A stretch of 64,000 nt of DNA from NCBI RefSeq assembly GCF_009914755.1, contig NC_060946.1. One strand, 5' to 3'. Both the position numbers and the translations under genes were made by a program. The DNA is from the human T2T-CHM13v2.0 reference genome, Homo sapiens. The notes beneath the pieces were generated by a model. That model had not been told where the DNA came from, did not search any database, and saw nothing but the letters and a program-made list of their open reading frames with translations. Numbering within the stretch: position 1 is the first letter of the stretch; each line of letters begins with the position of its first letter. Of this stretch, positions 10,828 to 31,600 are shown one piece after another.

Positions 10828-13800
10828 ATGACAGGATCAAATTCACACATAACAATATTAACCTTAAATGTAAATGGGCTAAATGCTCCAATTAAAAGAC
10901 ACAGACTGGCAAATTGATTAAACAGTCAAGACCCATCAGTGTGCTGTATTCAGGAGACCCATCTCACGTGCAGACACACACATAAGCTCAAAATAAAGGG
11001 ATGGAGGAAGATCTGCCAAGCAAATGGAAAACAAAAAAAGGCAGGGGTTGCAAACCTAGTCTCGGATAAAACAGACTTTAAACCAACAAAGATTGAAAGA
11101 CACAAGGAAGGTCATTACATAATGTTAAAGGGATCAATTCAACAAGAAGAGCTAACTATCCTAAATATATATGCACCCAATAAAGGAGCATCCAGATTCA
11201 TAAATCAAGTCCTTAGAGACCTACCAAGAGACTTAGACTCCCACGCAAGAATAATGAGAGACTTTAAGACCCCACTGTCAACATTAGACACATCAACGAG
11301 ACAGAAAGTTAAAAAGGATTTCCACGACTTGAACTCAACTCTGGACCAAGCAGACCTAATAGACATCTACAGAACTCTCCACCCCAAATCAACAGAATAT
11401 ACATTCTTCTCAGCACCACATCACACTTATTCCAAAATTGACCACATAGTTGGAAATAAAGCACTCCTCAGCAAATGTAAAGAACAGAAATTATAACAAA
11501 CTCTCAGACCACAGTGCAATCAAATTAGAACTCAGGATTAAGAAACTCACTCAAAACCACTCAACTATATGGAAACTGAACAACGTACTCCTCAATGACT
11601 ACTGGGTACATAACAAAATGAAGACAGAAATAAAGATGTTCTTTGAAACCAATGAGAACAAAGACACTACATGCCAGAATCTCTGGGACACATTTAAAGC
11701 AGTGCGTAGAGGGAAATTTATAGCACTAAATGCCCACAAGAGAAAGCAGGAAAGTTCTAAAATTGACACCTGAACATCACAATTAAAAGAACTGGAGAAG
11801 CAAGAGCAAACACATTCAAAAGCTAACAGAAGGCAAGAAATAACTAAGATCAGAGCAGAACTGAAGGAAATAGAGACATAAAAAACCCTTCAAAAAATCA
11901 AGGAATCCAGGAGCTGGTTTTTTGAAAAGATCAACAAAATTGAGAGACCGCTAGCAAGACTAATAAAGAAGAAAAGAGAGAAGAGTCAAATAGATGCAAT
12001 AAAAAAATGATAAAGGGGATATCACCACCGATCCCACAGAAATACAAACTACCATCAGAGAATACCAGAAACACCTCTACGGAAATAAACTAGAAAATCT
12101 AGAAGAAATGGATAAATTCCTCAACAAATACACCCACCCAAGACTAAAACAAGATAAGAAGTTGAATCCCTGAATAGACCAATAACAGGCTCTGAAATTG
12201 AGGCAATAATTAATAGCCTACCAATCAAAAAATCTCCAGGACCAGATGGATTCACAGCCTAATTCTACCAGAGGTACAAAGAGGAGTTGGTACCATGCCT
12301 TCTGAAACTATTCCAATCAATAGGAAAAGAGGGAATCCTCCCTAACTCATTTTATGAGGCCAGCATCATCCTGATACCAAAGCCTGGGAGAGATACAACA
12401 AAGAGAATTTTAGACCAATATCCCTGGTGAACAACGATGCAAAAATCCTCAATAAAATACTGGCAAACCGAATCCAGCAGCACATCAAAAAGCTTATCCA
12501 CCACGATCAAGCTGGCTTCATCCCTGGGATGCAAGGCTGGTTCAACATACACAAATCAATAAACGTAAGCCATCATATAAACAGAACCAAAGACAAAAAC
12601 CACATGATTATCTCAATAGATGCAGAAAAGGCCTTTGACAAAATTCAACAGCCCTTCATGCTAAAAAAAACTTTCAATAAACTAGGTATTCATGGGACAT
12701 ATCTCAAAATCATAAGAGCTATTTATGACAAACCCACAGCCAATATCATACTGAATGGACAAAAACTGGAAGCATTCCCTTTGAAAACTGGCGCAAGACA
12801 GGGACGCCCTCTCTCACCATTCCTATTCAACATAGTGTTGGAAGTTCTGGCTAGGGCAGTCAGGGAAGAGAAAGAAATAAAGGGCATTCGATTAGGAAAA
12901 GAGGAAGTCAAATCGTCCCTGTTTGCAGATGACATGATTGTATATTTAGAAAACCCCATCGTCTCAGCCCAAGATCTCCTCAAGCTGATAAGCAACTTTA
13001 ACAAAGTCTCAGGATACAAAATCGATGTGCAAAAATCACAAGCCTTCCTATACACCCATAACAGACAAACAGAGAGCCAAATCATGAGTGAACTCCCATT
13101 CACAATTGCTTCAAAGAGAATAAAATACCTAGGAATCCAACTTACAAGGGATGTGAAGGACCTCTTCAAGGAGAACTACAAACCACTGCTCAACAAAATA
13201 AAAGAGGTCACAAACAAATGGAAGAACATTCCATGCTCCGGGATAGGAAGAATCAATATCATGAAAATGGCCATACTGCTCAAGGTAATTTATAGATTCA
13301 GTGCCATCTCCATTAAGCTACCAATGACTTTCTTCACAGAACTGGAAAAAACTACTTTAAAGTTCATATGGAACCAAAAAAGAGCCCGTATTGCCAAGTC
13401 AATCCTAAGCCAAAAGAACAAAGCTGGAGGCATCACGCTACCTGACTTCAAACTATACTACAAGGCTACAGTAACCAAAACAGCATGGTACTGGTACCAA
13501 AACAGAGATATAGACCAATGGAACAGAACAGAGCCCTCAGAAATAATGCCGCATATCTACAACCATCTGATCTTTGACAAACCTGACAAAAACAAGAATT
13601 GGGGAAAGGATTCCCTATTTAATAAATGGTGCTGGGAAAACTGGCTAGCCATATGTAGAAAGCTGAAACTGGATCCCTTCCTTATACCTTATACAAAAAT
13701 TAATTCAAGATGGGATAAAAGACTTAAATGTTAGACCTAAAACCATAAAAACCCTAGAAGAAAACCTAGGCAATACCATTCAGGACATAGGCATGGCCAA

Positions 13801-28666: not shown

Positions 28667-31600
28667 ATGACAGGATCAAATTCACACATAACAATATTAA
28701 CCTTAAATGTAAATGGGTTAAATGCTCCAATTAAAAGACACAGACTGGCAAATTGGATAAAGAGTCAAGACCCATCAGTGTGCTGTATTCAGGAGACCCA
28801 TCTCACATGCAGACACACACATAGGCTCAAAATAAAGGGATGGAGGAAGATCTACCAAGCAAATGGAAAACAAAAAAAGCAGAGGTTACAATCCTAGTCT
28901 CTGATAAAACAGACTTTAAATAAACAAGGATCAAAAGAGACAAAGAAGGCCATTACATATTGCTAAAGGGATCAATTCAACAAGAAGACCTAACTATCCT
29001 AAATATATATGCACCCAATACAGGAGCACCCAGATTCATAAAGCAAGTCCTTAGAGACCTACAAAGAGACTTAGATTCCAAACAATAATAATGAGAGACT
29101 TTAACACCCCACTGTCAACATTAGACAGATCAACGAGACAGAAAGTTAAAAAGGATATCCACGACTTGAACTCAACTCTGGACCAAGCAGACCTAATAGA
29201 CATCTACAGAACTCTCCACCCCAAATCAACAGAATATACATTCTTCTCAGCACCATATCGCACTTATTCCAAAATTGACCACATAGTTGGAAATAAAGCA
29301 CTCCTCAGCAAATGTAAAGAACAGAAATTATAACAAACTCTCAGACCACAGTGCAATCAAATTAGAACTCAGGATTAAGAAACTCACTCAAAACCGCTCA
29401 ACTATATGGAAACTGAACAACGTGCTCCTCAATGACTACTGGGTACATAACGAAATGAAGGCAGAAATAAAGATGTTCTTTGAAACCAATGAGAACAAAG
29501 ACACAACATGCCAGAATCTCTGGGACACATTTAAAGCAGTGCATAGAGGGAAATTTATAGCACTAAATGCCCACAAGAGAAAGCAGGAAAGTTCTAAAAT
29601 TGACACCTGAACATCACAATTAAAAGAACTGGAGAAGCAAGAGCAAACACATTCAAAAGCTAACAGAAGGCAAGAAATAACTAAGATCAGAGCAGAACTG
29701 AAGGAGATAGAGACACAAAAAACCCTTCAAAAAATCAAGGAATCCAGGAGCTGGTTTTTTGAAAAGATCAACAAAATTGAGAGACCGCTAGCAAGACTAA
29801 TAAAGAAGAAAAGAGAGAAGAGTCAAATAGATGCAATAAAAAAATGATAAAGGGGATATCACCACCGATCCCACAGAAATACAAACTACCATCAGAGAAT
29901 ACCAGAAACACCTCTACGGAAATAAACTAGAAAATCTAGAAGAAATGGATAAATTCCTCAACAAATACACCCACCCAAGACTAAAACAAGATAAGAAGTT
30001 GAATCCCTGAATAGACCAATAACAGGCTCTGAAATTGAGGCAATAATTAATAGCCTACCAATCAAAAAATCTCCAGGACCAGATGGATTCACAGCCTAAT
30101 TCTACCAGAGGTACAAAGAGGAGTTGGTACCATGCCTTCTGAAACTATTCCAATCAATAGGAAAAGAGGGAATCCTCCCTAACTCATTTTATGAGGCCAG
30201 CATCATCCTGATACCAAAGCCTGGGAGAGATACAACAAAGAGAATTTTAGACCAATATCCCTGGTGAACAACGATGCAAAAATCCTCAATAAAATACTGG
30301 CAAACCGAATCCAGCAGCACATCAAAAAGCTTATCCACCACGATCAAGCTGGCTTCATCCCTGGGATGCAAGGCTGGTTCAACATACACAAATCAATAAA
30401 CGTAAGCCATCATATAAACAGAACCAAAGACAAAAACCACATGATTATCTCAATAGATGCAGAAAAGGCCTTTGACAAAATTCAACAGCCCTTCATGCTA
30501 AAAAAAACTTTCAATAAACTAGGTATTCATGGGACATATCTCAAAATCATAAGAGCTATTTATGACAAACCCACAGCCAATATCATACTGAATGGACAAA
30601 AACTGGAAGCATTCCCTTTGAAAACTGGCGCAAGACAGGGACGCCCTCTCTCACCATTCCTATTCAACATAGTGTTGGAAGTTCTGGCTAGGGCAGTCAG
30701 GGAAGAGAAAGAAATAAAGGGCATTCGATTAGGAAAAGAGGAAGTCAAATCGTCCCTGTTTGCAGATGACATGATTGTATATTTAGAAAACCCCATCGTC
30801 TCAGCCCAAGATCTCCTCAAGCTGATAAGCAACTTTAACAAAGTCTCAGGATACAAAATCGATGTGCAAAAATCACAAGCCTTCCTATACACCCATAACA
30901 GACAAACAGAGAGCCAAATCATGAGTGAACTCCCATTCACAATTGCTTCAAAGAGAATAAAATACCTAGGAATCCAACTTACAAGGGATGTGAAGGACCT
31001 CTTCAAGGAGAACTACAAACCACTGCTCAACAAAATAAAAGAGGTCACAAACAAATGGAAGAACATTCCATGCTCCGGGATAGGAAGAATCAATATCATG
31101 AAAATGGCCATACTGCTCAAGGTAATTTATAGATTCAGTGCCATCTCCATTAAGCTACCAATGACTTTCTTCACAGAATTGGAAAAAACTACTTTAAAGT
31201 TCATATGGAACCAAAAAAGAGCCCGCATTGCCAAGTCAATCCTAAGCCAAAAGAACAAAGCTGGAGGCATCACGCTACCCGACTTCAAACTATAGTACAA
31301 GGCTACAGTAATCAAAACAGCACGATACTGGTACCAAAACAGAGATATAGACCAATGGAACAGAACAGAGCCCTCAGAAATAATGCCGCATATCTACAAC
31401 CATCTGATCTTTGACAAAACTGACAAAAACAAGAAATGGGGAAAGGATTCCCTATTTAATAAATGGTGCTGGGAAAACTGGCTAGCCATATGTAGAAAGC
31501 TGAAACTGGATCCCTTCCTTATACCTTATACAAAAATTAATTCAAGATGGGATAAAAGACTTAAATGTTAGACCTAAAACCATAAAAACCCTAGAAGAAA

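What the first reader, a model, noticed from the sequence alone, without database searches (positions are those of the whole stretch)
11880..31178. Predicted NAHR substrate for a recurrent 17,837-bp deletion or reciprocal duplication
Seen: direct-orientation repeats with ~1.46 kb of perfect identity inside ~4 kb of high identity, separated by an 11.7 kb spacer (14882-26588). Established: long perfect identity between nearby direct repeats favours NAHR, and L1-L1 NAHR is a known cause of exon deletions. Inference: a crossover would leave one chimeric L1 with A's 5' flank and B's 3' flank (non-matching TSDs). It would remove the candidate exon at 24282-24417 and the enhancer-like block at ~22.7-23.9 kb. 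Conversion keeps renewing this substrate.
Basis: inference. Interest (0 to 1): 0.72.

Follow-up and report, generated by a model that had tools for sequence, protein, structure and literature searches.

The report
Neighbouring LINE-1 copies overwrite each other
Two old, broken LINE-1 elements 17.8 kb apart in a TTC28 intron share a 1,462-base identical stretch, likely because sequence was copied between them more than once; this would allow a rare, probably harmless intronic deletion, which has not been seen.

Summary
They are separate insertions of different L1 groups. A's ends are of the younger group; its middle is of B's older group (17 of 18 diagnostic sites, against 0 of 14 at its 3' end). 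A and B share 44 rare alleles in the perfect tract (378 control pairs: mean 0.38, max 4) and share frameshifts, so the copying came after decay. Divergence layers of 0%, about 2-3% and 9-14% point to at least two rounds of interlocus gene conversion, net B to A, the last likely under 1-2 Myr old. The pair meets published criteria for L1-L1 NAHR, so the deletion or duplication is plausible, but I found no record of it in the few tables I could read, and both copies survived repeated exchange. The 'exon' is no better than chance pseudo-exons; the deletion would remove a RefSeq enhancer at B's 5' end. A clean new case of a known process.

The parts
8741..14860 (+). L1 copy A, full length, broken ORFs; ends of the younger group (L1PA4/5-like, name recalled), middle replaced by B-type sequence
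8724..8741 (+). 5' TSD of A (18 bp; 3' copy at 14864-14881)
26600..32710 (+). L1 copy B, full length, broken ORFs; older group (L1PA6-like, name recalled); net donor
26589..26598 (+). 5' TSD of B (10 bp; 3' copy at 32712-32721)
11880..13341 (+). youngest conversion tract in A, 1,462 bp, 0 differences, inside ORF2
29717..31178 (+). partner of the perfect tract in B
9920..11035 (+). older converted layer in A (3.3% from B 27760-28873), ORF1 and start of ORF2
11036..11249 (+). unconverted island (12% from B)
11250..11879 (+). older converted layer, left flank of the perfect tract (2.1%)
13342..13920 (+). older converted layer, right flank (2.2%; includes a 227-bp perfect run 13600-13826)
14882..26588 (.). 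11,707-bp spacer that a crossover would delete or duplicate; TTC28 intron
   Evidence: hub annotation
26275..27474 (.). RefSeq enhancer over B's 5' UTR; lies inside the segment a crossover would delete
   Evidence: hub annotation; position; not tested

Best explanation
Two independently inserted, decayed L1 elements 17.8 kb apart share a 4-kb near-identical block, likely because repeated interlocus gene conversion copied B-type sequence into A, and the newest 1,462-bp tract would serve as a substrate for a rare, so far unseen, purely intronic 17,837-bp deletion or duplication. Shown: separate insertions (TSDs, groups), A is a younger/older/younger mosaic, shared decay mutations, layered divergence. 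Inferred: a break in one copy was repaired on the neighbour (synthesis-dependent repair without crossover); each event raised identity and eased the next; the last event is under about 1-2 Myr old. The net direction B to A is shown; the direction of the last event is not, since both copies were probably B-type there already. Predicted: crossover or single-strand annealing in the tract leaves one hybrid L1 (A 5' flank, B 3' flank), at a rate more likely 1e-7 to 1e-5 per generation than at the level of a common variant, with no annotated exon lost.
For: Different TSDs. Trees: A groups with the younger copies and B with the older at the 5' and 3' ends; in the tract A=B sits in B's clade, support 0.967. 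Diagnostic sites: A older-type at 17 of 18 sites in 11321-13826 and 0 of 14 in 13827-14860, p=3e-8. 44 shared rare alleles in the tract against mean 0.38, max 4 in 378 pairs of 28 panel L1s. Shared frameshifting indels in ORF1 (3) and ORF2 (6) and 3 shared stops inside the block (indels checked by eye). The tract carries 2.65% private changes, like old copies (2.1-3.4% in four older-group copies). Layers 3.3, 2.1, 0, 2.2% against 8.8% and 14% outside; tract vs flanks p=1e-9. Startek 2015 (PMC4344489): L1 pairs of 96-98% identity, even under 1 kb, are enriched at CNV breakpoints.
Against: One haplotype only; no ape or second human sequence, so ages rest on recalled mutation rates. The two older layers are not separable (p=0.10). 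At 10684 and 10687 A is older-type and B younger-type, against pure one-way copying. Two unequal crossovers give the same mosaic. No PRDM9-A 13-mer (recalled motif) in 8700-33000. The NAHR product itself has no direct evidence.
Confidence: 0.8

Rival explanations
1. One reading: an active hotspot giving a recurrent 17,837-bp deletion or duplication at 1e-5 or more per generation, or a polymorphic CNV.
For: Meets the length and identity range of confirmed L1-L1 NAHR; 219 L1-flanked deletions up to 62.9 kb, 76% L1PA pairs, in 1,019 genomes (PMC12350158); the fixed tracts show the copies do pair; the perfect tract is young, so survival only bounds the present rate below about 4e-5.
Against: No record in the TEMR table of three genomes or other supplements searched (38, 62, 65); only 5% of those L1-flanked deletions involve full-length L1s; both copies and one spacer survived about 1e6 generations, which bounds a neutral long-term rate near 3e-6; no PRDM9-A motif nearby.
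Confidence: 0.12
2. The mosaic came from a tandem duplication by unequal crossover followed by a second crossover that removed the extra unit, so NAHR has already happened twice here.
For: Gives exactly A-5' / B-middle / A-3' with B intact; multi-kb tracts fit; the reversed patch at 10684-10687 shows more than one-way copying.
Against: Needs two rare steps per layer and at least two layers plus an unconverted island; multi-kb conversion is common in duplicated DNA (mean 6.26 kb, PMC10172114).
Confidence: 0.12
3. Assembly or polishing artefact that collapsed the two copies over 1.46 kb.
For: Only CHM13 was seen; zero differences is what a collapse gives.
Against: The flanking 2.5 kb are B-type with shared indels yet 2-3% different, which a collapse cannot make; 1.46 kb is far below long-read length (own knowledge).
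Confidence: 0.04
4. Common origin: local duplication, or both copies from one source element, or A inserted as a chimeric L1.
For: Same strand, both full length, close together.
Against: Different TSDs and flanks, ends 9-14% apart and of different groups; shared frameshifts and stops cannot come from an active source; 0% needs a recent event.
Confidence: 0.02

Closest known systems
LINE-LINE NAHR substrates (Startek 2015, PMC4344489; TEMRs, Balachandran 2022, PMC9675761; Schloissnig 2025, PMC12350158)
   Same: Directly oriented L1PA pair, 4 kb at over 96% with a long perfect core; size within the observed range.
   Different: There identity mostly reflects youth of the copies; here it was made later by conversion between old copies of different groups. 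No CNV recorded here in what I could read.
AZFa HERV pair on Y (Bosch 2003, 2004: seen only as reference entries and a passage on directional conversion in PMC2918367; details recalled)
   Same: Old retroelement pair of about 94% identity with kb-long perfect blocks made by directional conversion, which host NAHR breakpoints.
   Different: LINE not HERV; autosomal; 18 kb not about 0.8 Mb apart; no genes in the spacer; AZFa deletions and duplications are observed, these are not.
Interlocus gene conversion in segmental duplications (Vollger 2023, PMC10172114)
   Same: Multi-kb tracts, donor/acceptor bias, repeated events at high-identity pairs.
   Different: The paralogues are independent retrotransposon insertions, not a duplicated segment; starting divergence about 9%, not 1-2%.

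Membership tests
interlocus gene conversion tract | paralogues of independent origin, more alike inside the tract than outside | tested here: met
   TSDs differ; 0-3% inside, 9-14% outside
interlocus gene conversion tract | shared derived alleles and changed tree position inside the tract | tested here: met
   44 vs mean 0.38; group switch
interlocus gene conversion tract | non-reciprocal transfer, flanks not exchanged | tested here: inconclusive
   TSD pairs intact and B older-type at 32 of 38 sites, but double crossover gives the same picture; reversed patch at 10684/10687
interlocus gene conversion tract | orthologues in outgroups lack the tract | not testable with these tools
   no ape or second human genome held
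L1-L1 NAHR substrate | direct orientation, same arm, under 10 Mb | tested here: met
L1-L1 NAHR substrate | about 4 kb at over 96% identity, or shorter at 97-98% | tested here: met
   4,001 bp at 97.8%; whole element only 93.9%
recurrent NAHR CNV | observed deletion or duplication with a hybrid junction in the repeats | tested here: inconclusive
   none in five papers' readable supplements; full SV catalogues not available
recurrent NAHR CNV | independent origins on several haplotypes | not testable with these tools
   no population data
recurrent NAHR CNV | meiotic break hotspot in or near the repeat | tested here: inconclusive
   no match to the recalled PRDM9-A 13-mer in 8700-33000; no DSB map
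full-length L1PA element | about 6.1 kb, 5' UTR, ORF1, ORF2, poly-A, TSD | tested here: met
   subfamily names recalled, no Dfam consensus available

The most novel reading that the evidence does not exclude
A self-renewing recombination hotspot built from dead L1s: conversion has lifted an old pair over the NAHR threshold on the human lineage, the newest tract still segregates, and only tract-carrying haplotypes throw recurrent 17.8-kb deletions and duplications that remove a working TTC28 element (the L1-5'UTR enhancer or an in-frame 81/99-nt exon); a third L1 27.6 kb away joins the exchange.
Probability: 0.08. Interest if true: 0.65.

Novelty: new member of a known kind. Interest (0 to 1): 0.33.

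Why it matters
It is a clean single-locus record that old L1 copies do not simply drift apart: neighbours can be re-homogenised over kilobases, so risk maps and age estimates built on subfamily divergence miss or misdate them. It gives a small, testable system for the ratio of conversion to crossover between retroelements. Clinical weight is low: the segment is intronic and holds no annotated exon.

Tried and rejected
Same-source or local-duplication origin: rejected. Unusual mutation spectrum in A/B: none, like the panel. Shared stop at 14282 as a conversion mark: rejected, CpG site, 8 of 31 rows. Third L1 sharing A/B indels: an artefact of adding it to a fixed alignment, gone after realignment. 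Rfam 8000-33500: 0 hits. Protein search with the stop-free phase-0 frame of the candidate exon (42 aa, longer proteins of 75-2000 aa): no hit, weak evidence since full TTC28 likely exceeds that range. The TTC28 mention in PMC3927684 concerns 1000-mers with 10 or more copies, not this pair. Ten literature searches found no description of this pair; six recalled papers were not held. The panel is 28 of the 48 L1 copies I had picked, so the older group has only 5 members (1 in the 5' part).

Full report
Observation. Self-BLAST shows one long same-strand repeat, 8743-14858 vs 26605-32708, 93.9%. The global alignment gives a 1,462-bp perfect run at exactly the stated places, offset 17,837. Both copies are full-length L1s with their own TSDs of 18 and 10 bp; the spacer is 11,707 bp. 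Among 40 scored candidates elsewhere in the genome none exceeds 94% to the tract; two control L1s of B's group have best partners of 95% among 40 scored each. These searches score only the best candidates.

Panel. I aligned A and B with 28 other L1 copies from the same genome; 20 further copies I had picked were not obtained. A and B lack the gap of about 125 bp in the 5' UTR that six younger panel copies show. By 3' end motifs A looks L1PA4/5-like and B L1PA6-like; these names are recalled, not tested against consensus models.

Copying after decay. In the tract A and B share 44 alleles seen in at most one panel copy; 378 control pairs share 0.38 on average, at most 4. They share 1-4 bp frameshifting indels at A 10402, 10480, 10563, 11480, 11500, 12006, 12154, 12399 and 13712 and stops at 10045, 11771 and 12260. 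An active source element cannot hand these down. The tract's private load (2.65%) is that of an old copy.

Direction. Trees of five segments place A with the younger copies and B with the older ones at both ends, and A=B inside B's clade in 9880-10534 and 11880-13341. Of 38 sites that separate 5 older from 13 younger panel copies, B is older-type at 32; A is older-type at 22 of the 24 sites from 10634 to 13597 and at 0 of the 14 after that. So the net flow was B to A. Against a simple story: A is older-type and B younger-type at 10684 and 10687. The direction of the last event cannot be read, since both were probably B-type there before it.

Layers and age. Change-point fits give 14.3% (8741-9919), 3.3% (9920-11035), 12.2% (11036-11249), 2.1% (11250-11879), 0% (11880-13341), 2.2% (13342-13920), 8.8% (13921-14860); the strictest penalty merges 9920-11879 at 3.9%. 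The perfect tract differs from its flanks (p=1e-9); the older layers do not differ from each other (p=0.10). With recalled rates of 0.5-1e-9 per site per year, the last event is younger than 1-2 Myr (9.5-19 differences expected at 6.5 Myr) and the 2-3% layers about 11-16 Myr at the higher rate (that rate overstates the age of the unconverted part, so all dates are rough). Two to four fixed events in about 1e6 generations suggest long-tract conversion at a few 1e-6 per generation (inference).

The NAHR prediction. The 4,001-bp block is 97.8% identical, in the range that Startek 2015 found enriched at CNV breakpoints (PMC4344489: first part of text, passages, Discussion). Schloissnig 2025 reports 219 L1-flanked deletions up to 62.9 kb, 5% between full-length copies (PMC12350158: passages). 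Balachandran 2022 gives 93.5% median similarity for homology-driven L1 events (PMC9675761: passages). So the substrate is competent. I found no record of the event: TEMR table of three genomes, searched for TTC28 and for coordinate prefixes from a recalled GRCh38 offset; supplements of PMC12350158 (table file cut, one file too large), PMC4344489 (2 of 3 files), PMC10172114 (2 of 3 files). PMC13192797 covers only L1HS-L1PA3 and its supplements were unreadable. Unseen supplements and the large SV catalogues may hold it. Survival of both copies bounds a neutral long-term rate near 3e-6, but the present rate only below about 4e-5. No recalled PRDM9-A 13-mer lies in 8700-33000.

What would be lost. 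The window lies in a phase-0 TTC28 intron between two TPR-coding exons. The 136-nt candidate exon would read Cys-stop; 20 of 36 GTRAGT donors on the minus strand have an equally good acceptor. Inner acceptors give stop-free 99- or 81-nt versions with several CpGs, an untested lead; a protein search found nothing. The 22.6-24.6 kb block is single-copy, with no Rfam hit. The hub's RefSeq enhancer 26275-27474 lies on B's 5' UTR and would be deleted, though the hybrid keeps A's 5' UTR.

Third copy. Another full-length plus-strand L1 lies 27.6 kb before A, its 5' end about 80 bp from the next TTC28 acceptor. It shares none of the A/B indels and 7 rare substitutions (panel up to 6, apart from B's relative L013), but is only 2.7% from A in 13342-14440 against at least 3.3-3.6% for the panel: older exchange possible, inconclusive.

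Comparison. It works like the AZFa HERV pair (conversion-made identity blocks hosting NAHR; seen only through a passage and reference entries in PMC2918367, details recalled) and like conversion in segmental duplications (mean tract 6.26 kb; PMC10172114 passages). Conversion between transposon copies is a known process (PMC8232201 passages). Ten searches found no description of this pair; PMC2566985 was seen as a listing only, PMC3927684 as passages. The library lacks most subscription papers.

Verdict. Real, well-supported repeated conversion between two old L1s; the CNV is a reasonable but unobserved prediction with low expected effect. New member of a known kind; interest 0.33.

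Noticed in passing
L033:105-6251 (G000:C22:28625104-28631250): Third full-length plus-strand L1, 91% to A and 90% to B, whose 5' end sits about 80 bp from the acceptor of a TTC28 coding exon; its antisense promoter would point along TTC28. Possibly exchanged sequence with A near A 13342-14440 (180-bp perfect run).
   Followed up: partly
window 10684-10687 / 28523-28526: Two neighbouring diagnostic sites where A is older-type and B younger-type: a possible reverse or reciprocal patch.
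   Followed up: partly
window 11036-11249: Island of 12% A-B divergence between converted layers, higher than the unconverted 3' end (8.8%).
   Followed up: partly
window 24282-24380 (-): Inner acceptors (99 nt, or 81 nt after a branch-point-like motif and pyrimidine tract) would give stop-free in-frame exons; the 300 bp around hold 6 CpGs, the most among the spacer windows.
   Followed up: partly
window 26275-27474: RefSeq enhancer coincides with the 5' UTR of L1 B.
   Followed up: no
L029 and L030 (C18): Two young panel L1s on one chromosome differ by only about 1% in the tract region, the closest panel pair.
   Followed up: no
L018, L019, L027, L028, L003, L025: Several panel L1s show 5' inversions or internal rearrangement.
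   Followed up: no
window 51165-52089: Cluster of minus-strand Alu elements with a 136-bp tandem repeat (51489-51748).
   Followed up: no
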